Assembly: GCA_002633005.1 (NCBI GenBank)
Contig: NMRA01000217.1
Location: 610,228 to 674,227, forward strand
Direction: 5' to 3'
From: Phoronis australis
Lineage: Eukaryota > Animalia > Phoronida
DNA length: 64,000 bases
The translations under genes and the position numbers were made by a program. The notes under the pieces are model-generated. The model worked only from the letters and a program-made list of their open reading frames with translations, did no database searches and was not told the origin of the DNA. The stretch's first letter is position 1; every line of letters starts with the position of its first letter. Shown here piece by piece: positions 3,650 through 50,468 of the stretch.

Positions 3650-3738
3650 CCGGGCCCGTAGTTACACACATAAAAGTGTCCCATGTCTCCACACAGGGAT
3701 TCACCACATCCGATTTGATAAACGTTATCTTGAACCAT
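3650..3738 (-). CDS. CAP gene exon: MVQDNVYQIGCGESLCGDMGHFYVCNYGPG
   Basis: tag acceptor, gtaagt donor, phase 0 to 2. Contains IGCG and YVCNYGP (CAP2 motif). Confidence 0.95.
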
Positions 3739-5947: not shown

Positions 5948-7541
5948 CTAAAACATAAGAAAGTTCCACAGAAAGTTTGTCTAAGAACTGAAATTCGTCA
6001 TTATTTTAGATTCATCGTGTTTCGAGTTAAAAAAATTATCTTTCAGGTTCAGTATAAAACCTTCAAAACCTCATCGTGCCGCAAACACCGCGTACCTACG
6101 CACCACACTACTTAATTAAATCTGAAGCACGCAGGCTTCAGTTAACTGTATCTAGCACAAAATTCAATGGTGGACAGTTCTGTCCAAGTCATCGGTTAAA
6201 TGACTCTCATCAGAAGTTGTTCTAGCTCGAGGATGCACAAATCCGAAGCTGCACTAGTCCCCAAATTGTGTATGTTGCTCTGTGCACGATTAATTGAATA
6301 GACGTGAAAACGTTTTCAAAACTGTTACTGTGTTTTTACCTTCCTGACACATCGAAGACGTCACGATATGAAAGGAAACAAAGTGAATGATATCATTGTT
6401 GATTACGACTTACTATGGCTCATTCAGTTTCCAAAAAACACGAAGTGTGATTCATGGAAGTGAATTTTACCGTTCCCAAAATCTCAAATTTGAATTATTT
6501 TTCTTGCATCCGGCATTCACTTGACTCCAGCGATAGCTTCCCGGCGCATTGTCTTGACTCCAGCGATGGCTTACCGTCGCATAATTGACTTTCTTAGAAT
6601 CCCGACAAAATTGCATTTTAATGTTCAGTTCCGCCTTATTATAAGGCTTTCGGACTATTGCACCTTCGAATATTGAGCTGCTCCCAAGCCAGTCATCGAT
6701 GTTTTCCGCTTTGTGTAAGAACTGAAAAATTCCCTGGCAAAACAAATCCTCACACTGACGATATTGATTACATGAATTCATGAACAGACAGTGTTTGAAC
6801 CTGTTGCATTCGAATGCTGTATTGTCATTGAGCCACCACACTGGGTATATTTGGTAACAATAAAATCAGTTTTGAGATGCAGTTGTCATCCATGCACAAC
6901 TTTTAATTTTTTTTGTGTGTCTAATTCTTGGCTTCCGGGAGCTTTGAGACGATATCCTTTTCAAACAATAACGGAGTACACGAGAATCGCTGTGAAACAG
7001 GTTATTTCAATTCAAACAGTGATGTGAAACGGAATTCTTGCCTTAAACAATTCTCGTCACTAATTGTCGGTTTTCTTTTAATAATCGCGAAACGCTTTTC
7101 AAGCTATCAGGTGTGATCGAGATGATGACTTTGAGTACTACTCTTCAAAGCTCTCACAATACATGTAGATTACCGGAAAAGAATGTCTAAAGTGACGTCA
7201 CGCTGATGAATCTTCAAAGATGTTTGAAAATATCTAATCTTGTTGGCTGACAACAAGGGTCTTGTTACGTATATCCGCCTTAATATTCTGAAAAATGGAG
7301 GACCGTGACTAATTTTTCAATTATTCTTTGAAAAATACATACTGTACCTATCGAGGACCTACTATAACGGGTAAGGATATAACTTTAATTCGCTTTACTA
7401 AATATCTGTAACACGGTGTTACGCCGGTAAACACGGAACCGAAAGTGATTTTCAGAGACAGTGAAGTACATAGTTGCTAGCCTCGTCAAGTCGACAACCT
7501 ATTCAGATCTGACATGTGTATAATACCAAAGACTACACTAC

Positions 7542-7626
7542 CTGGTATATCTCGATTACTGTCATGCACAAACAAACACGCTTCAGCCCACCGTTGAGCC
7601 ACCATAGCAATCTCATCGTCCCATCT
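7542..7626 (-). CDS. CAP gene exon: RWDDEIAMVAQRWAEACLFVHDSNRDIP
   Basis: ccgtag acceptor, gtagt donor, phase 0 to 1. WD..A..AQ.WA..C...H is the CAP signature. Confidence 0.95.
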
Positions 7627-9795: not shown

Positions 9796-9884
9796 CATCT
9801 TCATCATGTATGAGGCTTCCGACACTTCTGAACGTATTTTGTTGTGCATGTACACTATTAATTTCTTGTCTTCATCACGGACTC
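9796..9884 (-). CDS. CAP gene exon: GVRDEDKKLIVYMHNKIRSEVSEASYMMKM
   Basis: tttcag acceptor, gtaaga donor, phase 1 to 0. Contains HNxxR (CAP3 motif) and A..M.KM. Confidence 0.95.
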
Positions 9885-10443: not shown

Positions 10444-10563
10444 CTGTAATACTAGTATGTTTCGGCGACCTGGACAAGCAAGCTGAATGTTGACCAGAAA
10501 AGTGATGTTTGTATTTGTCCTCACAAGTGCCGGGCCGTCTTTGAGGGAGTGTTTTTGCTGCCA
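10444..10563 (-). CDS. CAP gene exon: pre-CAP segment MAAKTLPQRRPGTCEDKYKHHFSGQHSACLSRSPKHTSIT
   Basis: ttacag acceptor, gtaatt donor, 120 bp, phase 1-1, open frame. C..KY...H.ACL is typical N-terminal of invertebrate CAP domains. Confidence 0.88.
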
Positions 10564-12705: not shown

Positions 12706-12726
12706 TTGTGGTTGGCATTGTTGCAA
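12706..12726 (-). CDS. 21-bp microexon (I)ATMPTT
   Basis: ctcgtttcag TTGCAACAATGCCAACCACAA gtatgt; phase 1-1. Confidence 0.78.
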
Positions 12727-12958
12727 CTGAAACGAGATTATGATCTCAGGGTTAAAAAGCAGTTAGCAATAAGACGATTTCGGGATATGCAATCAAACAA
12801 GAAACGTTTTTTTGCTAACCATCGACAAAAATATTTGAAGTTGTTGTTGCATCAAAAACGAAAGTGTGGCCGTTGGATATCAAGGAAAAAAACAAACAGT
12901 ATGATATGAAACAAAACGACGTTTTTGTACGTTGACAACGATTTGAGAAGAAACTTAC

Positions 12959-12991
12959 TCGTAGTTGTTGTTGTTGTCGTTGTTGTTGATC
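12959..12991 (-). CDS. 33-bp microexon (G)STTTTTTTTT
   Basis: ctcgttttag acceptor, gtaagt donor; phase 1-1; poly-Thr. Confidence 0.8.
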
Positions 12992-13613
12992 CTAAAACGA
13001 GAAACAAGTGCTGCTTTACTTGATTTATTATTGAATTCCCTACACAATAATTAAGGTATTAAAGTCTTAATGGACTGATGACTTACCCAGACATTCGGCC
13101 ATCACTCTCACGAGTACATGTATATTTCGTGGCGCTTTGTGAGCTATGCTGTAGTTGCATGAAAAGTTATCTGCTTTGGTACACATGTACATGTATGCAA
13201 CGCTTGGTTTGCCTGAGCTCATCTCAGTTACAACAGCAACTTTGATAAATAATTGTAGACCGATTTTAACCATCGAGAAAAACTCGGTTTCATAGAGCTC
13301 TTCGAGTCATCTGCTATTTTTTCATATATTTCAAAACCACTTTCATCAGGCACTGTGCTAATACCACTGTATGCGTGCTGATAATTAGCCTGATTAATTA
13401 CCAGAACTCAGTAATTCACGCAAATGTGTACAGCGTTGTCCACTGGGGCTCTGTTGGCTAACCGAGATTTGTTCACCCTGTTTGGCTCTTTGTCGAGTTC
13501 TTAGTATGAGGAAAAAGGCTACGTACACGTAGTCTAGTCCTTAGTGTTTTAAAACATTTTGTGTGGATCGATGTCGTAACGACCCTCTTCACAATCGACA
13601 ATTTTGTAACCTG

Positions 13614-13835
13614 GGGCCCGTTCTAAGAAAACTGACCTAGGTAAGAAAATAACTTATTAAACTCCAGTACTTTTTAGCACAAAACTTCAATTTGTTTCAA
13701 GTGTCTTTCAAGAAAATTGTAAAATTGACTTCGATTTTTTACTTAATTTTGACTAACTTACGGAGTTTGGATGTTGAGACAAATCTGAGACTTAGGTCAA
13801 AAAGCGATCTCAAGTCAGTTTTTTGGAATTGGCCC
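13614..13835. mobile_element. Short Harbinger-like MITE
   Basis: TIRs gggcccgttctaagaaaactgac / gtcagttttttggaattggccc. Confidence 0.6.
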
Positions 13836-15349
13836 AGGGACTGCAATGTATCGTTATGCCAAGTACAATACGTGTCGCCAATATCGAATATTGTTACCCC
13901 AGCGTCATTGTATGGATTTCATGCATACATGGAACTCAAATTCAAAATACGTAGACCTTACTAGAAAAATCCATTGGTCAATGAGTTGAGAGTTACCTTA
14001 CTAGAAACATGTCTGGTATTTGATTGTGTATTTTGTCTAGTAAAACACATTCCTAGTGAAAATGAACATTATTTGAAATCTAGGTTATGCCTTTTTACAG
14101 CACAAAATCCCATAGATTTTCTTCTTGCATACCACTTAAGTGGCCTATGTGTGTATTGTTTATGGATTTTTTACGAGTCCGTGGTACCTCAAGTGTTTGA
14201 GATAGCTCAGTTTTTGGTGATATTTTATATGGTTTTGGTTTCACCTGCGTTGATGCAGACTGCAATATTTAAGTCATGGTCACGCGGTGCTCAGTGCCCC
14301 ACGACTCGGTCAAATTATGCCATATTTTCACATATTGAAAGTCGCTCTGTGTCAAAACCAGAGTCCAATTACCGACTGACATCCATTTTGAAAATACTGA
14401 TGATGCACTCACAGTTGGTGCCCCGTTTGGCTTCACTATGTACACGTGTCGTGATGGTGTTTGGATGCTACATGTATATGCCATGGCGATAGATCGTTTT
14501 GCGAATGCCTTAATTCACAGCTCCCATGTTGGAGCTGGCTCTGTAGTCGTTGCGTCACGACTTTTTACATTATGCAACATTTGTCTCGTGTGTACTATAC
14601 ATGTATATGTACTTAATGTAACTCAATTTTGTCAAACATAGAAAGTTCCCATATGTCATATTCAGTACAGTCGCCGACTGACATTCATTTTGAAAATTAT
14701 GAGAGTGCACTCCAATTGGTGCCTATTTTGTCTACACTAAGAACTCGTGTAGTGCTGGTGTTGCGATGCTATTTGCTATGCGATAGACCGTTTTCGAATA
14801 TCTTATTTCACGGGCCTCTAGTGGAGTTGGCCCTGTTACGGTTATGATGAATAACACTGAATATTCTGTCTAAAGGCATCGGTGTGCATGTCTCACTTTC
14901 GACCTTTTTGCTCTTGATTGTATCATCTTTAAATGAGCCGGAATGTGTAATGAATATTGTGTTTTCTGATTTCACGAGAACACGAAGTTATGAGAAATAG
15001 ACCAGTTCAACTTTTTACTAGCTGAAGCAGTGGCTGCATAATCAAATCGTTTCTCAATAGACGCTGCTAAATATTTATGTATTTCTCATCGTCCAGTCTG
15101 GCAACTGTTATTCTGTAACCAATCAGATATCCGAACTTTTGTTCTGCTAGTCAGTCACCATCATTTTACAGGGCCACCCTTCTTACCTCGTACCCCAGAA
15201 GACAATGCAGATTTTCAATTAACTGATGAGTAATTTGAAATATTTAGTTAAACTATCTTCATTTCTGTGACATCAGTTGAATGGTGTATTAGAATTCATG
15301 ACAGGGACAATTCTAAAATTTGTACAGAAACAAAGAACTTAAATCTCAC

Positions 15350-15469
15350 CCGTGAAGGTGCAAAATCCGCAGAACTTTCGGCAATTATCTCTTGCCCACG
15401 ATTCGTAAGCGCCAGTACATGCAGAAGATGAGTACATTTTACAGTCATCTTTCTTATCTTCACACTTAG
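15350..15469 (-). CDS. ShKT exon 4: AKCEDKKDDCKMYSSSACTGAYESWARDNCRKFCGFCTFT
   Basis: gtgcag acceptor, gtgag donor, 120 bp, phase 1-1. Six Cys ending C-x3-C-x2-C (ShKT pattern). Confidence 0.93.
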
Positions 15470-15909
15470 CTGCACACAAATCAATGAATTATTAGTGTGG
15501 AAATAAAAACACCAACCGTTACATATAAATGTGCAAATAAGATAAACAACAAAAAGGTTACTCACCATTTAACCGTTAGAAAATGGTAGCCGTATTGTTC
15601 GTTATTGGAAATAGAAATGATGTCTCAGCTTGTGGAGTTTTGTCAGGACGCTAATTCTTCAGACCACATTCAGATAAGATTTTTATTACGGCGTATTAGT
15701 TTTAAGCGCTGGGACTGCAGTTTGACCAGCCCCTTGGCAAGTGAAGGCGTTTTAACTAACTCTTATCAAACAGATCAAAATAGTACTTTGACGTGTTATT
15801 TTATAAGCCTGGAAGGCATGCTTTTTACCAGCTTCGCTATCCCTGCGCACTATTCATGTAGTCTACTAACAATAAAAATACGATTTGTTTTTGTAACTAG
15901 GGCACGTAC

Positions 15910-15927
15910 CTTGGACTGTAGTTGGAC
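15910..15927 (-). CDS. 18-bp microexon (G)PTTVQ
   Basis: tatttcag GTCCAACTACAGTCCAAG gtacgt; phase 1-1; homologous to 31761-31778. Confidence 0.75.
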
Positions 15928-18677
15928 CTGAAATACAGGACACCCAGATCTCATGTAAGCCGTTACTTTGCACAAACATGCACGTTCAGTATTAATTAAC
16001 CCATACATACAATTTAAATATGGAGACTTGACAGATATTTCACAAGGAAACCGTTCAATCCAACATTGACGACAACGCAAACCGTTGTTCATGTCTATCT
16101 GTATATATTGAAAGGAGACTTTAGATCGCCGTGTCGTTTTTTCAGGTAACGCAATTCCATGAACTCAAACCGGTCTCCTTCACGCATAGTAAAGTTGAGG
16201 TCTGGGATCGTTTTGGATACAAAAAGAGACACGGTGGGGATCCTAACGCTTTTCGGTGTCTTTTTGTTAAACATTGTATACCAAAACAGGCATAAGAAAC
16301 AATACCACTTAATGACCCGTAAAGGGGCATTTCATGTCTAAAATTATTAAGATAAACAAGTGAAGATGAATATGCTCAATACCCATGCATATTTTAAAAC
16401 CTGTAGACACTGATTTAAAGAGAAATAGCACCAGCCTGCCTGAATGGAGAACAGCTATCAGAGGATATCAAATGGTATCTCAAAATGCATAAAAGTAGAG
16501 ACAAATTATCAAAAAATGTGCCTTTCACATCCAATGTGTCATGTCATATATTCTATTAAACTAAAGCAATACGATATACATGTTATAAGAATAACAACGT
16601 AGCAAATAAATCTGGCACTAAAAGAGGCGATCCAAATCCTCTAAAGGATACTATTGCTTGACGAAATGTAAAATATATATAGGTAAATAAAACAACAATA
16701 ATGGATCAACTGAAATTTTCCGATGTAATAACATCATTCGTCAACAGAAACAGAAATAAAGTATAATGAAAAATGATATGGCATACTTGCCATAATAAAT
16801 ATGATAGATTGTTACGGAAAAAATAAAACATATGATTTAAGAAGTCTTCATGTTCAATACATGTGGTGCAAGTCTGTTAAGCTTATGTATCCAAAATTTT
16901 CCCTTTTGCGTCTGTGAGGGGTACTGGGGTATTGGAGTTTTTCTATTATTTGAAGAGAAAGATGTTGTGGAATATTGTTTTTGGAATTGAAACAATTGCC
17001 TATGATATCAGAACTGTTTTTATGTATCATGTTAAATCTATGATTGTGAAACTGAGTTTGTAAATTATTGAATTTGTTCTACATATTGAACGGAACATTT
17101 TCTACATGTTATTAGGTAAATGGTATTGTTGTTTTATTTACCTATATATATATATATACATACATATATATATAAGAAATGCAAAGCGCATGAATTATGA
17201 AGAAAAAATCATAATGTAATATGTTAGGGATTTAGGAGGAGCAAAGGGAATAATTAAACATATAGTCAACAGCGCATTTTCTTAAATTTTATACCACAAT
17301 TTTTAGAAAATGACAAAATGCGTTATCTTAGACAAGACAGAAATGACACAGAATTTCATTAATGATTTGTTCAGGATGGAAAGATCCTTGCCTGTGAATT
17401 AAACTATCTTGATAGTTTTTGTATTGCAGGCTTTTTAAAATCATGATGTGTTAAAGTTTGTATCTACTTCTAATGACGACAAAAATATCTCAAATGAAAT
17501 GTCAAAAAATTCCTGAATCTTCGTGGGGAATGGATAAAATTTCTTTTGTATTTTTTAAACAATGCTGTTAAAAAACTGAGAAATCCAACATCACTAATCA
17601 TAAACCAGTCCTTAAAGCAGGTATATTTCCAAAAATTAACACTGCGAAGACTACGCATTGATACAGGTGACGAAATTGATATCAATACCAATTTCACTGT
17701 TGACGGAATTTAATGCTAGTCCATATTTGGAATCATTTAATTCATCAACAATCAGTTGCTTATCATAGCTCAATTAATTACGATGTGACATGATTCATTT
17801 TTGTTTGTTTATCTTGTTTATTCAATGCACTGTGGCTTTCAGTGGTGTAACCCATCTTTATTCCATGTATTTGAAAAAACTGATATTGTTTACGTCACGT
17901 AATCAACTATGATAAACGGGAAAGTAGAGCCAATGGATATCCCAAAGTAGAGGCCGTATACAACTGTAGAAGCCCCATTTCACAGTTCGGGAGCAGTCTC
18001 CTGGTAGAGTAAATTCGCGAGTGCAATGGCAATTTGACTCATTCGTTTAGGTTACTTAAATCAGTAATCCTAGGTTTCGTTCCTGAAAAAGCGGTTTTAC
18101 TGCTCTAAAAGAGAAAAGATTTACAGATGAAAATTCCTTTGCAAGGTGATCAGGCGACCAGTTTGGGCCTCGCCGAAGTTTCAGTCATCATACATGTAAA
18201 TAGCTCAAGATAAGTAGAGTCCTCTGCCAGCAAAATCAGCCAAAATCTAGTTCAAATCCAACAAAAACGTTTCGTTGTGGATGCATACAGTATATCTACA
18301 CTGAAAGCTAAAAGGTCTTAACAGGAAATTGAGACCTAATAAAAAGCAAGCGTTTTTCATTGAGCCAATTGTCTGCTTGCAGCGATCAACTCTCGTTGGG
18401 ACCTCCTCTGATGAAATGAATTCTTGTTAGGATATAGCGGTAGAATTCTTAAATATGTGGGATAACCTATATTTACATGTCATAACGGTGCTTGCGATCT
18501 ATCTAATAAAAGACTTATACATTTTTACAATATTTCTGTTATATCTACAATTAAATAAGTTTGTTTACTGATTTAACATTTAATTCAATTCAATAAGCCC
18601 AATCCAATATGTTAGGAGTCTACAGTGTGTGTCTTGACAATTTACAATTTGAAGGAAAGTAAAACTTTAAGGCTTAC

Positions 18678-18797
18678 CAGTAACTGTGCAAAATCCGCAG
18701 AACTTTTCGCAATTTTGTCTTGCCCAGGGTTCGTAGTCGCCAGTACATGCGGAAGATCCGTAATTTGCACAGTTAGTGTTCTTATCTTCACACTTAG
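18678..18797 (-). CDS. ShKT exon 3: xKCEDKNTNCANYGSSACTGDYEPWARQNCEKFCGFCTVT
   Basis: CAGCAG tandem acceptor, gtaagc donor, 120 bp, phase 1-1; six Cys. Confidence 0.93.
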
Positions 18798-19486
18798 CTG
18801 CTGATACGTCATTGATTTACGGGAATGTAAAGAAACATCACTGACAGTTAAATGTGCAATCAACAAAAACTCTTGGCTTAACCGCCATTCAACCGCTTTG
18901 AAATCGGCTTCATATTGTTCACTATTGAGACTAAAAATGATGCTTCAGCCAGTGGAGGTTTGTCAGCTCCCTATTGCTGTAGACCACGTTCAAAGCATTT
19001 TTTGTCAAGGAGGTTTTGTTTTAGTCGCCTACTGAAATGTGAGGCGCTTCTGAACAAGAACAGACACTTTAACTGTAAATAAAACCTAACAAAAGGATGT
19101 AGTTGTACTTTACTGAAAAAATATATCAGCCGTAACATGCTTTTAGACATCTTCATTACAATTGTGAAACTTATTCTTTAAGCATATTAACGACATCAGG
19201 TGCGTTGAAATGCGATCTATAGCAACAACGCAAAGAATGTGTTCAACGGATGTTGATCAGTATCAAAATGGTAGGTAGAAGGCGCAGAATATGTCATTCA
19301 CATCCGAAATTGGTTGGGAAGGTGTTGTCGTCTACCGAGAAAAAAGCTACTCACTAAATTCCAGGGGTTACAGAAGCGAACGGGAAGGAGAAGCGGTAAC
19401 AAATCCATGCTGATTCGACGAAAAATTAGATACATGTATATACCAACCAAATAGCCACGACCAATTGTTCATAATGCAGACAGCAC

Positions 19487-19793
19487 GTGAGATGATCTAC
19501 ATGTATCTTCATGACGAATTTCAAAAGCATCCCTAAGGGGACCCCGACAACGAGACTCAAAATCATGATAATGCATACTTCGGAAAGTCTCCGATGACTC
19601 AAGAAACAAGATGAAGAAAAAATCGAAGAATTCGAAAACNGTGAGATGATCTACATGTATCTTCATGACGAATTTCAAAAGCCTCCCTAAGGGGACCCCG
19701 ACAACGAGACTCAAAGTGATGATAATGCATACTTCGGAAAGTCTCCGATGACTCAAGAAACAAGATGAAGAAAAAATCGAAGAATTCGAAAAC
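19487..19793. repeat. 153-bp near-identical tandem duplicate across single N at 19640 (likely assembly overlap)
   Basis: 19487-19639 vs 19641-19793. The paralogous unit at ~24050 has only one copy. Confidence 0.85.
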
Positions 19794-20594
19794 ATCCATC
19801 GAATTTCACAAAAATCTTTCCAGATAGAGAGCAGCCATATCTGACATCAACGAAAACATGAAAGATGTCAGGCACAACAACATATGGCGCCTGATTCCAT
19901 CCGAAAACCAAAATGTCAAGCTATGGACGAGACTCATAAACATCTCATATCCATCATACGAAAATGCGACCTGTAATAAGAAAATGAAAGGACAACAAAC
20001 GTGGAGCCGGAAGTAAGTCGATAACAGAACAGTCCTTGTTCAAGTTCATGTTGAGTGTTCCGAAAACATTGAGTTGGTTCCAGAAAAAGACTCCACATTG
20101 CTGTTAGCTCTTAGCAATATTCATATACTTGTACATGGACCAAATGCTGGACAGACCCGTAAAAAGACAAAAGAGATACAACAAACACAGTGGGACTAAG
20201 CATTCATCAGGATATTCTCGAATAGCTGGAGCCGGAGAACGGTAAAGAACCAGATGAAACGTTTTCTTAAGCCATCGACGAGGTCTGTGTACATGCCAAT
20301 TTTCAAAAGACTGCAGATCTAGAGCTCCGAGAAGCGAAAATTCCAAAAATCCTCTCAACAAACGTCATTTCGAGTCCGATTTTCATGTACAAACCAGATA
20401 TTGAATGGAAATTTCATGCTTATGGCTTAACCAAGAAAACAAAACCATTTGACTTGGAGAACTTTCAGTTATCCCAAGCAGAAATAGTATATGGAGGATT
20501 AAACTTGTGGATCAAGTTATATTCATGGACAAAAAAGAAAGAAAAAATTACGTCGACTGGCAACTATCAGATAAACGTACATGTAGATACTTAC

Positions 20595-20615
20595 GGGTCG
20601 TTGTTGTTTTCGCAA
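20595..20615 (-). CDS. 21-bp microexon (I)AKTTTT
   Basis: ctcgttttag TTGCGAAAACAACAACGACCC gtaagt. Confidence 0.78.
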
Positions 20616-20752
20616 CTAAAACGAGATTATGATATTTGCAATTAAACAAAATATCAAATACAAATATAATAACAAGACGATTTAGGCCAAAGCAACGAAA
20701 AGACGCCCTATACGTGTTTTTGGTAACTATAAGAGTAAGCAAAGGTCCTTAC

Positions 20753-20773
20753 TTGTACTTGATGTTGTTGCAA
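20753..20773 (-). CDS. 21-bp microexon (I)ATTSST
   Basis: ttgtttcag TTGCAACAACATCAAGTACAA gtaagg. Confidence 0.78.
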
Positions 20774-21899
20774 CTGAAACAAGAACATATTAGTTGCTGC
20801 TTGCTTCATCAACAGATTTCGAAAATTTCGTAAACCCTCACTGAACGTTGAGGAACTGCCGCGGGGTACGTACCCGGAAATTCAACCATCACGGCGTTGG
20901 GCGACTTTCACATAAGACAAATACCTACTGGACACGCGAGTCTGCTCTGGCTTAAGCCCGGTGATTGAAAACAGAAAGTGGCGTGAGAATGCCGGTGGTC
21001 TTGAATAGCGCATCGTGAGCGCGCTATCGTCATCCCTATATCACGCAAGTCTACATAACGCGCGGCACAGTTCCACGAGCGGTTATCAACGGCACAGTTC
21101 TAATAAACTTAGGGAGAGAGAGAACTTTAAGGTGAGTGCCTATAATTTCATTATTTTAGTATTTGGTTTATTTTTTATATTCGTTTACAACATACTCCAT
21201 ATAACGAAATACTTTTTACAGTAGTTAACATTATGTTTTAAGGCCTTTATTGTAAATTTCGGATAGGCAGTTGGAATTATTAGTTTATCACATTTTTGTA
21301 TATGTCACTGCCTTTTGAACCTTTAATGAAGAGTATTATCAAATGGCATCACATGTCAACTTAATATATCAAGACTTTTAATTTCGGATGAATGCATGAC
21401 TAAATTCTTCACACCAATTGAAATTCTTCACACCAACTGTTAGGCAACCATATCCTAAAATCTTTTGTCTTGATAGGTAGAAATCTTTTTTGAATCCTTG
21501 AAATTATTTCCCCTCTGGTTAAATTATTCATTTATGAACCTCTCTGATTAATTTTCTTTTCATGTTACTGTTACATCGAATAATTTTTGCATTTTCTAGT
21601 TTTAGAATTAAAAACAAATTTTTAAACCTGCAAATATGCGACATGATGACTGTCTGTGAATTAAGTTATTTATCGTTTGCTTTTTCTATAATCATACACC
21701 ACCAAGAACCGGTAAAGGGCTGTTTAATGATTTAACTCTGATTCAATTCGACTGAAAAGCTGCAGAGTTGCAGTAAATTTCATAACAATAAGCAACACCG
21801 GAGCAAATGAATTCAAACATGCGCGGTAAAACTCCAGCAGCGCGAAATCGAAGTTGGCATTCCAGGCAAGAGTTCTGTAGAGTTAACAAAAATACTTAC

Positions 21900-21920
21900 T
21901 TGTAGATGATGTTGTTGGAA
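21900..21920 (-). CDS. 21-bp microexon (V)PTTSST
   Basis: ttttgtttcag TTCCAACAACATCATCTACAA gtaagt. Confidence 0.78.
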
Positions 21921-23143
21921 CTGAAACAAAAAGATACTCTTACGAAATCACGGCTTTCTTGATCACCTAATTTTTCAAATCCTCATTGAGGGTAAGCGGG
22001 CTGTGAAATTCAACCGTCACTACCCTTAGGGGTTTCACAGACTACATTTATGTTGTACTTGCACTGAAAGTTGTCAATACAACGTATGTGACATGTTTTT
22101 TGTCTCCTATTCTACAACGACGACGAGAAAACCTAAAGACGCTTTTATTGGTCGCCAACGCATCAGAGCCTCATCGAACTATCAGCTGTTAAGTCTAACA
22201 CATTTCAATAAATGTTAATTTGATATTTAGACGTCACAGGCTTTACAATCAAGCTGTAAAATGAAACTCTGTTGCCACGTCATCCTCTTATTCAATCAGC
22301 TGTTGTTGTAGGCCTTGTTCAAAAGCCCTATTTTCATTAATGCCACTTAACCGCTCTTTACTGTCTTTTCTTTCTAAACCAAGCTAAATGAATGAATTTG
22401 CCAATTTGTCTGCGTTAATGGTTTGGTATGCTGTGCTTGATTTGTCCAGGTTCTGCTATACTTGGTATCACGCAACTTTTCATGTTTTTAGCTACATTTT
22501 GATAAATATTTCAAAACTACTTTCAGTAGACACTGCACTTATACTACTGAATGTGTGCTGATAAGCCTAGTGCATGTAGTTCCAGAAATCAGTGATTGAT
22601 AGCAAGCGTGTATAAAGAGATATCCATTCAGGCTCTGTTGGCTGACCGAGATTACACACCCCGTTTGGCGATTTGTCGAGTACACAGAATGAGCTAAAAT
22701 GGTATCTACATGTAGGCTATGTCCAGGTTATGATGTTTCATAACATTACATGTAGGTGAAGAGCACTGTAACTGTGACACTTGTTGTAGTGTCGCACTCA
22801 AACGTGTCGCACTCGACACATTTTATCTCCCAGACTGCAATACAGGGTTTTTCCAAGTACGACATTACAAGTGGTAGTTACTGATACCTGTTGTCGCCCT
22901 CGCCAATTTGAAAGGTCGTTTCTTTAGCAGGGTTTTTGGAACAACATTGGTTGAGAAATCAGACTAAGAATAACCTGAGAAATTTAAAGACAGCCAAACA
23001 CTGTGGATGTTGTAAGTTAAAAAAAAAGATCTGGAAAATAGGCGTTGTTGGCAATAATCACGCCACATAAAGCCCGCACTCCGACCGCATGACACAACCG
23101 TTCCATAGCTAGTGGAAAATGAAACTAAGAGGTTTAAACTCAC

Positions 23144-23263
23144 CCGTGACAGTACAAAATCCGCAGAACCTTTCGCAATATTGTCTTGCCCACGATTTGT
23201 ATACGCCAGAACATGCGTAAGATCCGTAACTTGCACAGTTAGTTTTCTTATCTTCACAATTAC
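23144..23263 (-). CDS. ShKT exon 2: xNCEDKKTNCASYGSYACSGVYKSWARQYCERFCGFCTVT
   Basis: tgacag acceptor, gtgagt donor, 120 bp, phase 1-1. Visible in ORF 23109..23324. Confidence 0.93.
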
Positions 23264-24994
23264 CTGTCAACACGTCATTGAATTTAGGAAATGGAAAAGA
23301 CAACACTGACAGTTTAAGGTGCAATCAACAAGAATTCTTGATTTGACCGCCATTCAACCGCTTCGAAATCGGCTGCATATTGTTCATTATTGAGAACACA
23401 AATAATAATTCAGCCAGTAGAGGTTTGTCAGGTCCCTATGGCTGTAGACCACGTTCAAAGTTTTTTTGTCCTTGAGGGTAAGTTTTAGTCACTTACAGCG
23501 ATGTGAGGTGCTTCTGTACAAGAACAGACACTTTAACTATAAATAAAACCTATCAAAAGGATGTAGTTATGCATCATTAAAAATACATCAGCCGTAACAT
23601 GCTTTTAATCAGCTTCACTACAATAGTGAAACTTATTCTTGAAGCGTACTAACGATATCAGAAGCAATGAAAAGTGATCTACAACAGGAACGCGAACAGT
23701 GTGTTCTACGGTTGTTGATAAGTATCAAAAATGGCAAGTAGATGGTGCAGAATATGTCATTCACATCGGAAAATGGTTAGGAATTTGTTGTCGTCTACCG
23801 AGAAAAAAGCTATTCACGAAATGTTCAATCAGAGATTACAGAGGCGAAGGTGAAAAAAATTGGCTTGCGAAGGAGAAGCGGTAACAAACCCATGCTGATC
23901 CGACGAAGAATTTGACATGAACCGAGAATGATACATTTTTGTCCCAGCCAAATTAACTCGAGGAATTGTTCAGTAAAGGTACATACATCTGACTAATCAA
24001 TCTATGAGTGAGAAAAGGATGACACAATGCAGACAGCACTTGACAATAAATATCTACATGACAAATTGCAAAAGGATTCCTAAAGGGTCCCGACATGGAA
24101 ACTGAAAATCATGAGAAAGCAGACATCGGAAAGTGTCCAATGACTCAAGGAACATAAGATGAAGAAAAAAATCGAATGGCAATTTCCCATGGCTTTTGAA
24201 AACATCCATAGAATTTCAAAGAAAATCTTTCCAGACAGACAGCAGCCATAGCTGACATCACAGAAAACATGAAAGATGAGAGGCACAACGGATCTTGCGC
24301 CTGCTTCCATCCAAAAACCAAAAGTTTGAGCTATAGACGAGACTCGTAAACATCTCATATCCATAATACGATAATGCGACCTGTAGCAGGAAAATGAAAG
24401 ATTAACAAATTTGGAGCCGGAAGTAAGTCGATAACAGGACAGTTGTTGCCTCAGTTAATGATAGGTGTCCCGAAAACATTAAGTTGGTTCCAGAAACAGT
24501 ATTAACAATGGTGTTAGCTCTGAGCAAGATCTACATACATGTACATACACCAAATGCCGGACAGACCCGTAAAAAGACGAAAGTGATACGGAACAAAATT
24601 CAGTGGAACTAGGAATTCATCAGAATATTCTCGAATAACTGGAGAAAGGTAAAGAACCAAATGAAACGTTTTCTTAATCAATTGGCGAGGTCTGTGTACA
24701 TGACAAGTTTCAAAAGACTGCAGATCTAGAGCTCCGAGAAGCTATAATTCAAAAACCCTCTCAACAAACGTCATCTTGAGTCCGATTTACTTGTACAAAT
24801 CACATATTGAGTTAAAATTCCATGCTCATGGCTTAACCAAGAAAATAAAACCATTTGACTTGGAGAAATTTCAATTATCCCAAGTAGAAATGAATTATGG
24901 AGGATTATACTTGTGGAACGAATTATATCCATGGACAAAAAAGAAAGAAAAAATTACGCAGACTGGTAATGATTAGATAAACGTAGATACTTAC

Positions 24995-25012
24995 GGGTCG
25001 TTGTTGTCGCAA
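24995..25012 (-). CDS. 18-bp microexon (I)ATTTT
   Basis: cattttag TTGCGACAACAACGACCC gtaagt. Paralogue of 20595-20615 with an in-frame 3-bp length difference. Confidence 0.78.
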
Positions 25013-25149
25013 CTAAAATGAGATTATGACAGTTGCAATTAAACAAAGTATCAAACAAAAATGTAATAGTAAGACGATTTAGGCCAAAGCAATGAAAAGA
25101 CGCCCTATACGTGTTTTTGGTAACTGTAAGAGTAAGCAAAGGTACTTAC

Positions 25150-25170
25150 TTGTACTTGATGTTGTTGCAA
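25150..25170 (-). CDS. 21-bp microexon (V)ATTSST
   Basis: ttgtttcag TTGCAACAACATCAAGTACAA gtaagt. Confidence 0.78.
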
Positions 25171-26308
25171 CTGAAACAAGAACACACTAGTTGCTGCTTG
25201 CTTCATCAACAAATTTCGAAAATTCCGTAAACCCTCACTGAACGTTGAGGGGCTGCCGCGGAGTACGAACCCGGAAATTCAACCATCAAAGATAATCTTA
25301 TTACGGCTCTGGGCGACTTTTACATAACACATCTGTATATGCGAGTCTGCTCTGGCTTAAGCCCGGTGATTGAAAACAGAAAGTGGCGTGAGAATGCCGG
25401 TGGCCTTGAATAGCGCATTGTGAGCGCGCTATCGTCATCCTTATATCGCGCAAGTCAACATAACGCGCAGCACAGTTCCACGAGCGGCTATCAACGGCAC
25501 AGTTCTAATTAACTTAGGTAGAGAGAGAACTTTAAGGTGAGTGTACATAATTTCATTATTTTATTATTTGCTTCATATTTGATACTTGTTTACAATATAC
25601 TCCATATAACGAAATACTTTTTAGTTAACACTTTGGTTTAAGGCCTTGATTGTAAATTTCGGATAGGTAGTTGGAATTATTAGTTCATCAAATTTTTTGT
25701 AAATGTCACTGCCTTCTGAACTTTTACTGAAGAGTATTATCAAATGGCACCACATGTCCACTTAATATATCAAGACATTTAATTTCGGATGAATGCCTGA
25801 CTAAATTCTTCACACCAACTAAAATTCGTCACACCAACTGTTAGGCAACCATATCCTAAAATCTTTTGTCTTGATAGGTAGAAATCTTTTTTGAATCCTT
25901 GAAATGATTTCCCCTCTGGTTAAATTATTCATTTATGAACCTCTCTGGTTAATTTTCTTTTCATGTTACTGTTACATCCAATAATTTTCGCATTTTCTAT
26001 TTTTAGAATTAAAAACATATCTTTAAACCTGTCCGATATGCGAAATGACGACTGTCTGTGAATTATATTATCTATCGTTTGCTCTTTCTATAATCATACA
26101 CCACCAAGAACTGATAAAGAGCTGTTTAATGGTATACATGTAACTCTGATGCAATTCGGTTGAAAAGGTGCAGAATTGCAGTAAATTCCTTAACAATACC
26201 CAACCCCAGAACAAATGAATTCAAACATGCCCGGTACAACCCCAGCAGCGCGAAATCGAAGTTTGCATTCCAGGGCAAGAGTTCTGTGGAGTTAACATAT
26301 ATACTTAC

Positions 26309-26329
26309 CTGTAGATGGTGTTGTTGGAA
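26309..26329 (-). CDS. 21-bp microexon (V)PTTPST
   Basis: tttctttcag TTCCAACAACACCATCTACAG gtaagt. Confidence 0.78.
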
Positions 26330-27550
26330 CTGAAAGAAAAAGATACTCTTAATAAATCACAGCTACTGCTTTCTTTATCACCTAATTTTTCAAATCCTCA
26401 TCGAGGGCAAGCGGGCTGTGAAATTCAACCATGACTACCCTCAGGGGTTTCACAGACTACATATATGTTGTACTTGCACTGAAAGTTGTCAATACAACGT
26501 ATGTGATACGTTTTTGTCTCCTATTCTAAAACGACGACGAGAAAACCTAAAGACGCTTTCATTGGTCGCCAAAGCATCAGAGCCTCATCGAACTATCAGT
26601 TGCTAGGCGTAACACATTTCAATAAATGTTAATTTGATACTTAGACGTCGCATGCTTTAGAATGAAGCTGTAAAATGAAACTCTGTTGCCACCCCATCCT
26701 CTTAATTAATCTGTTGTTGTTGTAGCCTTGTTCAAATGCCACTTAACAGCTCTATAATTTCTTTTCTTTCTGAACCAAGCTAAATGAATGGATTTGCCAA
26801 TTTGTCTGCGTTAATGGTTTGGCTTGCTGTGCTTGATTTTTCCAGGTTCTGCAATACTTGGTATGATACACCTTTTCAGGTTTTTAGCTACATTTTGATA
26901 AATATTTCAAAACTACTTTCAGTAGACTCTGCGCTTATACTACTGCATGTGTGCTGATAAGCCTGATCAAATGTACAGCGTAGTTTCAGAAATCAGGCAA
27001 TTCATAGCAAGCGTGTATATAGAGATGTCCGTTGAGGCTCTGTCTGCTAACCGAGATTACACACCCCGTTTGGCGATTTGTCGAGTACACAGGATGAGCT
27101 AAAATGGTACGTACATGAACGCTATGTCCAGGGTATAATGTTTCATAACATTACATGTAGGTGAAGAGCACTGTAACTGTGACACTTGCTGTAGTGTCGC
27201 ACTTGAACGTGTCGTACTCGACACATTTATCTCCCACACTGCAATACAGGGTTTTTCCAAGTACGACACTGCAAGTGGTAGTTACTGATACCTATTGTCG
27301 CCCTCGCCAACTGGAATGTCGTTTCTTTAGCAGGGTTTTTGGGACAACATTGGTTGAGAAATCAGACTAAGAATGACCTGGGAACTTCTAAGACAGCCAA
27401 AATCTGTGGATGTTGTAAGTTTAAAGGGAAAGATCTGGAAAATAGACGTCGTTGGTAATAATCACGCCGCATAAAGCCCGCACTCCGACCGCATGACACA
27501 ACCGTTCCATAGCTAGTGGTGGAAAATGAAACTAAGATGTTTAAACTCAC

Positions 27551-27670
27551 CGGTGACAATACAAAATCCACAGAACCTTTCGCAATTTTGTCTTGCCCAC
27601 GATTTGTAGACGCCAGAACATGCGTAAGATCCGTAACTTGCACAGTTAGTTTTCTTATCTTCACACTTAG
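27551..27670 (-). CDS. ShKT exon 1: AKCEDKKTNCASYGSYACSGVYKSWARQNCERFCGFCIVT
   Basis: ggacag acceptor, gtgagt donor, 120 bp, phase 1-1; six Cys. Confidence 0.93.
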
Positions 27671-29944
27671 CTGTCCACACGCCATTGAATTTCGGAAATG
27701 GAGATAAAATACCGACAGTTAAAGGTGCAATCTACAAAAGTCCTAATTTTGCTTTAGGCAAATGTTCTTGATCACGAATATAATAGATGTCAACACTTTG
27801 CTTACTCTATTGTGGCAGACCATAATCGATTAAAGTTTTTAGACCGCACAATATAGTCCAAATTTGGCCAACTTCAGAACGTTGTATCTTTCTGATACTT
27901 ACATGTATACGTTTTCCCCACACAGACAGGAATACTACTAAAACATCCTTTCGAGATTTCATTTCATCTGGGTATGTGCGAACGAAACCATTGCGTTGGA
28001 CAATCTCAGATGAAATTAATTGTAATTAAAATCCTATAAGTACAATGTATGAACTTATTTGCATTTCGAAATCAAGTTTTACTGGTATTCGACCCCAAAG
28101 AGGCAAGGGCCTCAAAATATGTGGTGAGTTTCTTCTCAAAACAGGCAAAGGATCAACCATTTAATTTTGCGTAGTTTTGAATGTCATTTTTGAAAATCAT
28201 TAAGGCTCTAGATTGGACTGTACCCAAACTCTGACTCATTAACTTAGAGGAAACGATTGACATCCAACAAAAATTTCAGCAAATGTCTGCTTTTCGTCGT
28301 AAGCTAAGTAGGGCTTGAATCAACCTGGTGTGCTCAGCAATGCAATACGTGAAATTAATGCCTTGAGCAGAATTGGAAACCTCATAGAATTCTGTCAGTG
28401 CAGCAACCTTATGGCGGTGACACCTAAGAGGCTCTACCGATGCTACGCCACGGCCAACATCGGACTTGTTCAGAACGGTAAAGACGAACTTTCATATTTG
28501 GAAACAAATTCAAATCACTTGGGAGGTTACCTTACGGATGATCTCAACAAAAAGTCTGAAGTTAGCCATATATTTTAAGATTTTAAATCCATAAAAGTTA
28601 TTTTTTTCCGAAAGTTCTCAGCTTTTGAAATTTTGTTCTTTAATTTTATACCTATTTTCCATTTTTTAGTAATATGGCAAGGATCTTTTAATAAATTGTA
28701 TCTAAATGAAGGTACATTTATGGAAGAAAAAGGTATCAAGATCATGAATCAATTTCGTGCCACAGAGATGCTCTAGGAAAAATCTCGAAACCGTCGTTAC
28801 TTTCTATAATTCATCATTGTGCTTTCTTTCTTTGAGAATTTTGAGTTTTATAAAACTCAACAAATTGCTACATTTGATAGTCACCATGCTAAGCTGGAGC
28901 GTTACATTGCGTGCAGAGTTCTGTGGGTCCCGGTCTTTTGCTTTATAATCCAGGCGCTAAGCAGACGACTGTGTCAGTTTTAGCTATAATCGCTATTTTA
29001 GGACTACACGACAACTTTGAGGTACTTATTTTCGATCCTGATATAGGGCAAAACTTGACCTCTGCATGCATAACTCCATGTAGGTCAAAATGTGACCTAA
29101 TAGCATGAATTACATGCAGGTATATATCTCTGTAGACAGAATGTGATGAACTTTGGGTCGACTCTTATGTTATAAGAGTGACCATTTAATTTTTACACCT
29201 TACGAGATCATTCAAGGTCAGGGTCACTTCACAATTTCCCCAAGACCGCTGTCTTTAGCCAAAAATGTACATAACATTCAAACGACAAGCAGTATGTGAA
29301 AGTTCCATAAGAAATTTCCATACTAAATCCAAATGACCGTTTCAAGTTGTCTCTTGAAACCTGATATGGGGCAAAATAATTCGACCTCAGTAACTGAAAT
29401 TTTTATGCATATGATTAGTTAAAAGTTGTTTGTCAAAATTTGCCTAATTCTCTCAAACCATTTTTGACACTTTCAAGGTCATTATAGGTCAAAGTCACGA
29501 GACAATTTCCCAAAAACTTCAATTTTTATCCAAAAAATACATAACATTAAAACAGGGCAGGTACGTGCAGAGTAACATAGGCCTACTTCAGATAGGTAAA
29601 AAAACTCGACAAGTAATGAGGCAACGTGTTGCTTTGATGCATCCTTATCGGATCCTGGTCGTTGTCAGATCAAGCAATGGTTCTTGGAATTTTCGAATGC
29701 GACATGAATCTTCAAAATGAGTTTTTAGTTTGCGAGGTTTTGACAAGGTCGCGAACGGCGAACTTTTGTTGGTTTTCTTGTCTGATCAAGCGCTAGCCAG
29801 GGACCCATACATGTAGAATCCGGTGTCAAATTAACATTGCCCCCTTAGTGGAGAAATTGTCCGGATTGCGTGTAGTTGAATGAAGCATCTGGGTAATGCG
29901 CCCGTTTGATGGCTATCAAATACATGCAGTCAAAATTCTCTACG

Positions 29945-30170
29945 GGGGACAATCACAACGACCGCACCGGGACACACAGGACCCCGATAAAATGGGACAC
30001 ATATGTAGAACCCGAGACACATGGAACCCGGACACATAGAACCCGGGACAACTAGAACCTGGGACACATAGAACCCTGGACAAATAGAACCTGGGACACA
30101 TATAATCCGGGACACATAGAACACGCGGGGACAAATAGAACACGGGACACATCCGGTCCGGGAACATACA
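29945..30170. repeat. ~19-20 bp minisatellite (CCGGGACACATAGAA core); inverted relative at 10650-10800
   Basis: Repeated gggacacatagaacc units. Confidence 0.85.
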
Positions 30171-30788
30171 TGTATAAAAAGCAACTTCTCATGGAGTATC
30201 GTGCATAAAGCATGACATCTGAAAACTTCATAAATGCTATCACCCGTTTCTGAGATACACGCATGATGAATTTGGACATTATCCAAGGTATTACAACACG
30301 ACAAGTCGCTCTTGCTGTTGTCATCGATCTGCCGTGGTTACATCACAACAAATTTTGCCGATACAATGTTAGACACACCGCATACCGATACCCTATTCAG
30401 TCACGGAGTTCTATTGCCATAACAATTCTAACGACTTTCGTGTCGATACCCTGCCCTGTTTAGTCCGTTCCAAGCTGCAGGCATCACAAATGCTGTAAGG
30501 GTGTGATGGATTGAGAGGACATCGACAGAATGTCATGTTGCCCATACTTTACTGGAAAGATCAAGGACAGGAGGATACATAGCACTATGGGCCAGGGAGT
30601 GGTAAAACTTTACAGCCATACTACAGTAACTATAGCTTGACCAGGGATGCAAAGTATTGACAAACCCACTGTTAATTTATGAAAATCTTGAACGGGCGTG
30701 GAAATAGAGATCACAAGCATTTTAAACCTGGTCTGCACGCCACCTGTTGGGCACATCACATGATGTGGCCAACAGGTGGCGTGCAGAC

Positions 30789-32828
30789 CAGACTCATTTG
30801 AAATGTTTATGAACCCACAGTTAAGAACAAAACTCAAAATATAAACCATACTCTAGAGAGTAAGATCATTGTGTGGCACTTCATATGACCCAAAGTGACA
30901 ACACTGGACTTTCAACAGGAACTGCCAAGAGCGGGTTCGATTGACTTTAAATTACATTTACCTAAGTTGTTTTTCAGATCGCGTCCGAATCCTCACAGCC
31001 TATGACTCAAAGTACTACACGGTTATCTGAAAACTGTCTATAAACAATGCCTTTTGACCGTTTGACGTCCCCATCTCTGCTGATCATTAGGCGTCGGACG
31101 GTAGTTTGAAACCAGATCTTGTTCGTATTCATCAGCCTTCACGAAGTTTTGATAACAATGACGGGAATTTGAGGGTCATTGTCAAAACACAGTTTAGTAG
31201 GCATAATAGAAAACACCGTTCAGTAACACCATGAATATAATATTTTATAATATTTTTGCGCAATTTGTATAAAAGTCCATGAACTGGTGTACATGCATTG
31301 TAGTCGTCATGGACAATGCTGACCGGTATATTTATGCATTTGGCTATCGGACCATTCACACTCGTCATATCTCACAAAGAGATGAAAGGGCGGGGCACAG
31401 TGTATTGCTATGGCGGGCCCAGATGTTTAGTGGTCTGCAAATGGGTACAAATGTATTAACATACATGGAAATTCTAAAGCCTAACTGTATTCTTGCTGTA
31501 AAATGTATTAATTAACTGTTAAATTTGTTTGCCACGGCGGATCGGCTTTATTTGTTGATTATGCGAGCAGCGTCTTGGCAAGTAAAGGTGGTTTGACTAA
31601 CGCTAAATAAGACAAAGCAAAAAGAATCGATAATACCGTGATGCTGTTTAGACACCGTAACCTGTTTTTATCAACTCCACTTGAACTGTATAAAGTATTC
31701 ATCAATCCTATTGGTAATATACATGTAAGTACAATGAGTTTTTCTAGCTAGAACACGTACCTTGAACTATACTTGAAACTGAAAAAGAAAAACACACAAT
31801 TTATTACACNCAGACTCATTTGAAATGTTTATGAACCCACAGTTAAGAACAAAGATCAAAATATAAACCATACTCTAGAGAGTAAGATCATTGTGTGGCA
31901 CTTCATATGACACAAAGTGACAATACTGGACTTTCAACAGGAACTGGCAAGAGCGGGTTCGATTGAATTTAAATTACATTTACCTAAGTTGTTTTTCAGA
32001 TCTCGTCCGAATCACAGCCTATGACTCAAAGTACTACACGGTTATCTGAAAGCTGTCTATAAACAATGCCTTTTGACCGTTTGACGTCCCCATCTCTGCT
32101 GATCATTAGGCGTCGTACGGTAGTTTGAAACCAGATCTTGTTCGTATTCATCAGCCTTCACGAAGTTTTGATAACCATGACGGGAATTTGAGGGTCATTG
32201 TCAGAACACAGTTTAGTAGGCATAATAGAAAACACCGTTCAGTAACACCAAGAATATAATATTTTATAATATTTTTGCGCAATTTGTATAAAAAGTCCAT
32301 GAACTGGTGTACATGCATTGTAGTCGTCATGGACAATGCTGACCGGTATATTTATGCATTTGGCTATCGGACCAATCACACTCGTCATATCTCACAAAGA
32401 GATGAAAGGGCGAGCACAGTGTATTGCTATGGAGGGCCCAGATGTTTAGTGGTCTGCAAATGGGTACAAATGTATTAACATACATGGAAATTCTAAAGCC
32501 TAACTGTATTCTTGCTGTAAAATGTATTAATTAAATGTTAAATTTGTTTGCCACGGCGGATCGGCTTTATTTGTTGATTATGTGAGCAGCGTCTTGGCAA
32601 GTAAAGGTGGTTTGACTACCGCTAAATAAGACAAAGCAAAAAGAATCGATAATACCGTGATGCTGTTTAGACACCGTAACCTGTTTTTATCAACTCCACT
32701 TGAACTGTATAAAGTATTCATCAATCCTATTGGTAATATACATGTAAGTACAATGAGTTTTCCTAGCTAGAACACGTACCTTGAACTATACTTGAAACTG
32801 AAAAAGAAAAACACACAATTTATTACAC
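30789..32828. repeat. ~1.02-kb near-identical tandem duplicate across single N at 31810 (likely uncollapsed haplotypes)
   Basis: 30789-31809 vs 31811-32828, differing by scattered SNPs and 1-2 bp indels. Confidence 0.88.
31761..31778 (-). CDS. 18-bp microexon xSSIVQ (second copy at 32780-32797, probably allelic or an assembly duplicate)
   Basis: tttctttttcag TTTCAAGTATAGTTCAAG gtacgt; phase 1-1; homologous to the microexon preceding ShKT exon 4. Confidence 0.68.
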
Positions 32829-42325: not shown

Positions 42326-42404
42326 CTGTAACTGTGATATTGAACAACACAAACGCCGCTATGGCCGCCAACAAACAGCCCCGAAATGCGAGGTTATTCT
42401 CCAT
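42326..42404 (-). CDS. Signal-peptide first exon MENNLAFRGCLLAAIAAFVLFNITVT
   Basis: agaATGG start, hydrophobic core, ACAG/gtaaat phase-1 donor. Joins in frame to the exon starting at 40414. Confidence 0.78.
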
Positions 42405-50348: not shown

Positions 50349-50468
50349 CAGGCGTTGTACTCTCACCATCTGGAAGCTGCATGCACTTGGCTGAACACGT
50401 GGCTACACTTATAGTCACAATGTATTTAGCAATTTGACCATGTTTTGAAGCTACCAACACACTTTATA

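What the first reader, a model, noticed from the sequence alone, without database searches (positions are those of the whole stretch)
12706..32797. Linkers encoded by a battery of ~10 symmetric microexons (18, 21, 33 bp): a potential combinatorial splicing system
Seen: microexons at 12706, 12959, 15910, 20595, 20753, 21900, 24995, 25150, 26309 and 31761 (32780). Each has a pyrimidine tract + AG and a strong GTA donor, each is phase 1-1 and a multiple of 3, as are the 120-bp ShKT exons. Paralogues 20595 (21 bp) and 24995 (18 bp) differ by exactly one codon while surrounding introns have arbitrary indels, suggesting selection on frame. Inference: any subset can be skipped in frame, tuning linker length and ShKT number, reminiscent of schistosome micro-exon genes (MEGs).
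Basis: partly seen in the sequence, partly recalled or inferred. Interest (0 to 1): 0.8.

Follow-up and report, generated by a model that had tools for sequence, protein, structure and literature searches.

The report
Microexon-built threonine spacers, ShKT-CAP gene
In an invertebrate animal gene, ten tiny in-frame exons encode threonine-rich spacers between four ShKT domains ahead of a CAP domain; RNA reads show several of them spliced in one after another with no skipping seen, so they are likely fixed spacers made by exon duplication rather than a mix-and-match splicing system.

Summary
The microexons are real. All eleven sites have the stated length and phase; 31761/32780 are probably one exon assembled twice. 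With four 120-nt ShKT exons they form one open frame into a CAP domain and encode 7-22-residue spacers, mostly Thr-rich. RNA-seq shows the chain ShKT-A>26309>25150>24995>ShKT-B and ShKT-C>15910>ShKT-D. All 41 listed junction observations join neighbouring exons; no microexon-skipping joint was listed. Depth was only 4-11 reads per junction in two runs, so minor or tissue-specific skipping is not excluded. Symmetry is poor evidence for skipping: the ten exons fall into about three duplicated lineages, and only symmetric exons survive tandem duplication. The variation seen looks DNA-level (variant 18- and 21-nt exons absent from the assembly), plus a one-codon tandem acceptor and three reads compatible with loss of the whole ShKT-B module. 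It fails the MEG definition (longest run three; known domains). Closest known: schistosome SmVAL6 and mollusc ShKT-mucins, whose RefSeq isoforms already drop linker pieces. The scan noted similar microexon-linker arrays in other genomes.

The parts
42326..42404 (-). Candidate first coding exon with a signal-peptide-like stretch, ends phase 1; link to this gene untested
   Evidence: sequence only; outside both laid stretches
32780..32797 (-). 18-nt microexon, second assembled copy (probably allelic duplicate of 31761-31778)
   Evidence: 1017 aligned bases, 19 mismatches, either side of single N at 31810; no RNA test
31761..31778 (-). 18-nt microexon before ShKT-A (SSIVQ)
   Evidence: no RNA test
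27551..27670 (-). ShKT-A exon, 120 nt, phase 1-1
   Evidence: Pfam ShK E 4.6e-07; joint to 26329 in 5 reads
26309..26329 (-). 21-nt microexon (PTTPST)
   Evidence: joints in 5 reads, out 3+4 reads, run X1
25150..25170 (-). 21-nt microexon (ATTSST), identical in letters to 20753-20773
   Evidence: joints to 25012: 4+1 reads, plus 6+1 placed on the identical 20753 copy
24995..25012 (-). 18-nt microexon (ATTTT)
   Evidence: joint to ShKT-B 4+2 reads; 3 further reads continue into a ShKT exon that starts like A/C/D
23144..23263 (-). ShKT-B exon, 120 nt, 94% identical to A
21900..21920 (-). 21-nt microexon (PTTSST), paralogue of 26309
   Evidence: sequence; about 2 reads of depth in X2, no listed joint
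20753..20773 (-). 21-nt microexon (ATTSST), paralogue of 25150
   Evidence: reads cannot be separated from 25150
20595..20615 (-). 21-nt microexon (AKTTTT), paralogue of 24995 with one extra codon
   Evidence: sequence; RNA shows a 2-letter variant before ShKT-C in 4+3 reads
18678..18797 (-). ShKT-C exon, 120 nt; tandem (NAGNAG) acceptor at 18797/18800
   Evidence: Pfam ShK E 1.2e-07; loose ends at 18797 (4 reads) and 18800 (3 reads)
15910..15927 (-). 18-nt microexon (PTTVQ)
   Evidence: its letters lie between ShKT-C and ShKT-D in 3+3 reads; a 4-letter variant in 2+3 reads
15350..15469 (-). ShKT-D exon, 120 nt
12959..12991 (-). 33-nt microexon (ST9)
   Evidence: sequence; indirect RNA support, masked as a repeat
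12706..12726 (-). 21-nt microexon (ATMPTT)
   Evidence: sequence; indirect RNA support
10444..10563 (-).
   Evidence: joint to 9884 in 7+1 reads
9796..9884 (-). CAP exon 1 (HN..R...M.KM motif)
   Evidence: joints; motif read from sequence, no database hit by itself
7542..7626 (-). CAP exon 2
   Evidence: joint 7626->9796 in 4+3 reads; PDB venom allergen 3 E 1.7e-05, Ves v 5 E 1.1e-04
6575..6733 (-). Predicted CAP exon 3; junction with exon 2 unresolved, no RNA depth
   Evidence: bin 6451-6900 depth 0 in X1 and X2
3650..3738 (-). CAP exon 4 (IGCG...YVCNYGP)
3051..3164 (-). Predicted CAP hinge / last exon in window

Best explanation
The ten microexons are short coding exons that build threonine-rich spacers between four ShKT domains ahead of a CAP domain, and they are likely included in nearly all transcripts rather than shuffled. 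Shown: the exons, the open frame, the domains, inclusion of at least four microexon sequences in consecutive order. Inferred: they arose by tandem duplication of single phase 1-1 exons and of a 4.4-kb [ShKT + three microexons] unit, which only symmetric exons survive; the spacers are extended, O-glycosylated stalks that hold the ShKT domains apart on a secreted protein; diversity comes mainly from DNA (divergent alleles or unit number), with at most minor splice variation.
For: Chain of 17 exons from 31761 to 7542 has 0 stops in one frame. Linkers are 21, 22, 7 and 19 aa, 71, 73, 43 and 74% S/T/P. One search lists 6 joints, 30 read observations, all between neighbouring exons or their identical twin; one search lists 11 ShKT-C to ShKT-D reads, all carrying an 18-nt exon, and no direct C-D joint. 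Depth accounting in X1: 5 of 5 reads at 27559 against 5 A->26329 joints; about 10 read-equivalents on 24995 against 10 joints in; about 4 entering B against 4 joints. Duplication: units A/B 87%, B/C 76% identical; flanking-intron homology links 26309/21900, 25150/20753 and 12959, and separately 24995/20595 and 12706; 31761 resembles 15910. Microexons differ at 2 of 60 bases between units against 336 of 3375 in introns. The variant 18-nt exon always follows a ShKT-C with a changed last codon (table 5c), which points to an allele or paralogue and not to a choice of exon. In relatives 108 of 217 inter-ShKT linkers are at least half S/T/P.
Against: Only two runs of one study express the gene, 18-19% of each was read, 4-11 reads per junction; 0 of 5 and 0 of 10 allow up to 45% and 26% skipping, and joints under 3 reads are hidden. 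No joint was listed for ShKT-B->21900->20753->20595->ShKT-C. Three X1 reads run from a 24995-type exon into a ShKT that does not start like B, and four are placed 26309->20753; both fit loss of the whole B module as well as alleles. RefSeq isoforms of related mollusc ShKT-mucins do drop 9-22-aa linker pieces. Signal peptide and glycosylation were not tested.
Confidence: 0.65

Rival explanations
1. Limited cassette splicing: the microexons are mostly included, but one whole module (ShKT-B with its three microexons) or one or two linker exons are skipped in a minor or tissue-specific isoform, changing ShKT number from four to three.
For: 3 reads 24995-type exon -> ShKT starting like C; 4 reads placed 26309->20753; no listed B->21900 joint although about 4 reads cover B's end in X1. 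Tandem acceptor at ShKT-C used both ways, 4 and 3 reads. Relatives have such isoforms in RefSeq: Mytilus trossulus XP_063433371-80 (blocks of 9, 16, 20, 59, 75 aa), Haliotis pairs (11 and 22 aa), a whole-ShKT drop in an ADAMTS-like protein.
Against: No 18797->24995 joint was listed; 7 of about 9 reads at the start of C carry another 21-nt exon. The sequenced animals clearly carry alleles or copies unlike the assembly, which explains the same reads.
Confidence: 0.2
2. Full MEG/SmVAL6-like combinatorial skipping of any subset of microexons, giving a ladder of linker lengths.
For: All 10 exons symmetric and phase 1-1. SmVAL6, a CAP gene with small same-phase exons, gave 35 isoforms in 67 clones (PMC2270263, passages). 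Other tissues and stages were not sampled.
Against: At SmVAL6-like diversity most reads would skip; here none of 41 listed junction observations does, and depth leaves little room for hidden ones. Longest microexon run is 3. No TGC within 20 nt of any microexon acceptor (the link of this motif to srrm3/4-regulated microexons is recalled, not looked up).
Confidence: 0.1
3. The assembled locus is a mosaic or decaying copy; much of the RNA comes from a sister gene, so the splicing of this copy was not really tested.
For: Single-N join at 19640 inside the B-C intron; variant exons absent from the window; no depth on predicted CAP exon 3; exons of what looks like a sister CAP-EGF-ShKT gene at 55885-58507.
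Against: Reads match 15910, 25150 and 24995 letter for letter and join at the predicted sites; 21 of 45 X1 reads are 99% or more alike.
Confidence: 0.05

Closest known systems
Schistosoma mansoni SmVAL6 (PMC2270263 and PMC3435950; passages read)
   Same: CAP (SCP/TAPS) domain gene with many small same-phase exons outside the domain.
   Different: SmVAL6 has 38 exons, 17 under 20 bp, C-terminal to CAP, no signal peptide, and 35 isoforms in 67 clones. Here 10 microexons lie in runs of 1-3 between ShKT exons N-terminal to CAP, and no skipping was listed.
Micro-exon genes (MEGs) of Schistosoma, Echinococcus, Hymenolepis (PMC4671649 passages; bioRxiv 10.1101/2023.06.21.545858 part 1 of 3; bioRxiv 10.1101/2020.04.08.031872 passages)
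   Same: Symmetric exons under 36 nt, long introns, Thr/Ser/Pro-rich product.
   Different: MEG coding regions are mostly microexons in runs of four or more, without known domains, and are skipped. Here microexons are 213 of 987 nt of the traced chain, longest run 3, with ShKT and CAP domains.
Mollusc and brachiopod multi-ShKT mucin-like proteins (e.g. M. trossulus XP_063433371.1, Lingula XP_013415044.1, Dreissena XP_052221273.1 isoform X16)
   Same: Same ShKT subtype (54-66% identity for best hits), Thr-rich linkers; RefSeq-predicted isoforms differ by small in-frame linker blocks.
   Different: None of the 32 scanned with Pfam has a CAP domain (32 of 150 hits), nor did a CAP motif pattern match any of the 150. 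Their exon structures were not examined.
Molluscan CAP-ShKT proteins and CRISPs (PMC6409789, passages)
   Same: CAP plus repeated ShKT domains; frequent internal domain duplication; low-complexity spacer N-terminal to CAP in type II.
   Different: ShKT repeats are C-terminal to CAP there, N-terminal here; the word 'isoform' and 'alternative splicing' do not occur in that paper's main text.
Symmetric exons encoding disordered linkers by tandem duplication (PMC3632108; abstract and passages)
   Same: General rule that fits this gene; 40.5% of constitutive human exons are symmetric against 49.4% of alternative ones, so symmetry alone says little.
   Different: Human data, not microexon-specific.

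Membership tests
MEG | Microexons with lengths divisible by three | tested here: met
   10 of 10
MEG | [quoted passage not shown] | tested here: not met
   Longest run 3; 10 of at least 21 exons
MEG | Central coding part mostly microexons, no conventional domain exons | tested here: not met
   213 of 987 nt in the traced chain; four ShKT exons and CAP exons
MEG | Extensive exon skipping | tested here: inconclusive
   None listed in 41 junction observations, but shallow, two runs, 3-read listing threshold; leans against
MEG | Signal peptide in a long 5' exon | tested here: inconclusive
   Candidate exon 42326-42404 exists; its link to this gene was outside the laid stretches
MEG | TSP-rich product, O-glycosylated | tested here: inconclusive
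   Composition met for three of four linkers; glycosylation not testable here
CAP-ShKT / CRISP-like | CAP domain | tested here: met
   Exon 2 matches venom allergen 3 E 1.7e-05; exon 4 matches PR-1/VAL4 weakly; third exon unresolved
CAP-ShKT / CRISP-like | ShKT domains | tested here: met
   Four above the Pfam cut-off, spliced into the CAP exons
CAP-ShKT / CRISP-like | ShKT C-terminal to CAP | tested here: not met
   The four lie N-terminal; further 3' exons beyond the window cannot be excluded
Class 1-1 exon-duplicated modular gene | Modules on phase 1-1 exons with duplicated flanking introns | tested here: met

The most novel reading that the evidence does not exclude
A free-living invertebrate CAP gene has independently evolved an SmVAL6/MEG-like diversifier: in tissues or stages not sampled, linker microexons and whole ShKT modules are dropped by splicing, on top of unusually divergent microexon alleles (4 of 18 and 2 of 21 letters), giving each animal a set of secreted proteins with different ShKT number and spacing.
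Probability: 0.15. Interest if true: 0.6.

Novelty: new variant of a known kind. Interest (0 to 1): 0.3.

Why it matters
As it stands it is an RNA-backed example of linkers built from hidden microexons, which gene finders miss, in a CAP protein with an unusual N-terminal ShKT array; useful for annotation and as a case where exon symmetry reflects duplication, not skipping. If module or microexon skipping were shown, it would place VAL6/MEG-like variation outside parasitic flatworms and allow a test of whether it predates parasitism.

Tried and rejected
No whole genome is held for this window, so paralogues and the variant exons could not be sought elsewhere. No indexed RNA holder was listed; runs came by species label. 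X3 and X4 showed no depth on the ShKT exons. Three word-based protein searches with single exons found nothing; the Atlas search did not run. CAP exon 1 alone had no PDB hit. The variant 18- and 21-nt exons are not in the window. A candidate exon at 8751-8876 was rejected (stop in the needed frame; RNA joins 9796 directly to 7626). Mutually exclusive 18-nt exons were considered and rejected because the variant travels with a changed ShKT-C end. Paper searches: 'ShKT + CAP domain + threonine + exon + tandem' gave 0 papers; (listings and abstract starts) showed no paper on microexon-coded linkers in ShKT or CAP genes of free-living invertebrates; the library lacks most subscription papers, and DeMarco 2010 was not held. 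Supplements were not read; MEG tables there could hold similar genes.
Full report
Observation. The gene runs on the minus strand. Four 120-nt exons (27551-27670, 23144-23263, 18678-18797, 15350-15469) each pass the Pfam ShK cut-off. The 17 exons from 31761 to 7542 give one frame with no stop, and all ShKT and micro-exons are phase 1-1. A simple splice-site scan of 12001-33500 finds 18 candidates of 9-36 nt, 13 divisible by three, against a mean of 2.6 (maximum 8) in 200 resamples; the plus strand gives 3 candidates, none divisible by three. The pair 31761/32780 lies in a 1-kb, 98% duplicate around a single N; the other two single Ns (19640, 46799) have the same 98% flanking duplicates, so I read these as haplotype overlaps and count ten microexons.

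What the gene is. Linkers are 21, 22, 7 and 19 residues, 43-74% Ser/Thr/Pro. After them come a 120-nt exon (10444-10563) and a CAP domain: exon 7542-7626 matches venom allergen 3 at E 1.7e-05, exon 3650-3738 matches PR-1 proteins weakly. The nearest named ShKT relatives are from molluscs and a brachiopod, so the animal is probably a lophotrochozoan (inference). Thr-rich linkers are common among them: 108 of 217 linkers, in 67 of 142 multi-domain proteins. None of 32 scanned of the 150 hits has CAP.

RNA test. Three raw RNA-seq runs and one contig set were offered by species label. X1 and X2 express the gene on the expected strand; X3 and X4 show no depth on the ShKT exons. In one search, ShKT-C joins ShKT-D with the letters of 15910-15927 between them (3+3 reads) or with a variant 18-nt exon (2+3 reads); no direct joint is listed. 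ShKT-D reaches 10567 with unknown letters between (3 reads); the ends fit inclusion of 12959 and probably 12706, but the 33-nt exon was masked. Joints 10444->9884 (7+1) and 9796->7626 (4+3) tie the array to CAP. In one search (X1, X2) six joints are listed: A->26329 (5), 26309->25170 (3), 26309->20773 (4), 25150->25012 (4+1), 20753->25012 (6+1), 24995->B (4+2). Since 25150 and 20753 are identical and 20753->25012 runs backwards, the twin placements are most simply mapping ambiguity. That makes 41 junction observations, none skipping a single microexon. They are not independent, and joints under three reads are hidden, so the better limit is depth accounting: 5 of 5 reads leaving A, about 10 of 10 entering 24995, about 4 of 4 entering B. 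Per junction this still allows 26-45% skipping at 95% confidence.

Results against my reading. No joint was listed for B->21900->20753->20595->C. Seven X1 reads enter ShKT-C from a 21-nt exon that differs from 20595 at two letters and is not in the window; four use the acceptor at 18797 and three the one at 18800, a one-codon difference that may be alternative splicing or an allele. Three reads go from a 24995-type exon into a ShKT that starts like A, C or D, not B; with the four 26309->20773 placements this fits skipping of the whole B module, a haplotype with a different unit number, or a unit lost at the N at 19640. Related mollusc genes have RefSeq-predicted isoforms that lack 9-22-residue linker blocks or a whole ShKT (12 pairs compared, 5 with an internal 9-22-aa linker block, the rest other kinds of difference), so cassette splicing is plausible in this protein class.

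Why symmetry is weak evidence. Units A and B are an 87% tandem duplication, B and C 76%. Intron homology and exon likeness reduce the ten exons to about three lineages. An exon can be duplicated in tandem without a frameshift only if it is symmetric (established reasoning; PMC3632108 reports it for disordered regions, and gives 40.5% symmetric among constitutive exons). The one-codon difference between 20595 and 24995 is required of any coding exon, lies in an ACA repeat, and 7 of 29 intron indels in the same duplication are also multiples of three. Lower divergence of microexons (2 of 60) than introns (336 of 3375) supports coding function, not skipping.

Mechanism, with status. Shown: exons, frame, domains, ordered inclusion of at least four microexon sequences. 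Inferred: birth by duplication; near-constitutive inclusion; variation mainly allelic, since the variant 18-nt exon travels with a changed ShKT-C end; spacers as O-glycosylated stalks; secretion (the signal-peptide-like exon at 42326-42404 was not linked).

Comparison. It is not a MEG: longest run three, microexons 213 of 987 nt, known domains present (criteria). SmVAL6 is the closest named case of CAP plus small exons, but it is heavily skipped (35 isoforms in 67 clones). Molluscan CAP-ShKT proteins carry ShKT after CAP. My searches found no paper on this arrangement. Earlier notes of this scan report similar microexon-linker arrays in other animal genomes (unchecked).

Verdict. Real microexons, combinatorial claim not supported at the depth available. 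New variant of a known kind; interest 0.3; novel reading 15%, worth 0.6 if true.

Noticed in passing
window 6575-6733 and 6001-6300: The predicted third CAP exon has no RNA depth in X1/X2 although the exon before it has about 4 reads; its junction with 7542 is unresolved (best donor is phase 1, acceptors phase 0; weaker phase-0 donors exist). Reads on the gene's strand with several differences pile up at about 6090-6190 in X1/X2 but hardly in X3: possibly another 3' end or a repeat.
   Followed up: partly
window 58400-58507 and 55885-56000, minus strand: EGF-like (C..CYNGG.LD..TC.C.C) and ShKT-like exons that look like the 3' end of a neighbouring CAP-EGF-ShKT gene; no Pfam hit at E 1e-5.
   Followed up: partly
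window 42326-42404, 40232-40414, 36065-36148, minus strand: Signal-peptide-like exon, a Cys-rich exon without database match and an 84-nt phase 1-1 hydrophobic exon; unclear whether they are the 5' end of this gene or a separate gene.
   Followed up: partly
window 19640, 31810, 46799: Each single N is flanked by 98% identical direct duplicates (153, 1017, 550 bases): likely haplotype overlaps of the assembly, implying about 2% allelic divergence.
   Followed up: yes
window 18797-18800: Tandem NAGNAG acceptor of ShKT-C, both sites seen in reads (4 and 3).
   Followed up: partly
window about 50360-52030, minus strand: Fragment that reads like the 3' part of a non-LTR retrotransposon ORF (seen by eye, not tested).
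   Followed up: no
window 62983-63846: 21-bp tandem array of about 41 copies.
   Followed up: no
window 16600-17070 and 13610-13830: Interspersed repeats with many reads on both strands in all RNA runs.
   Followed up: no
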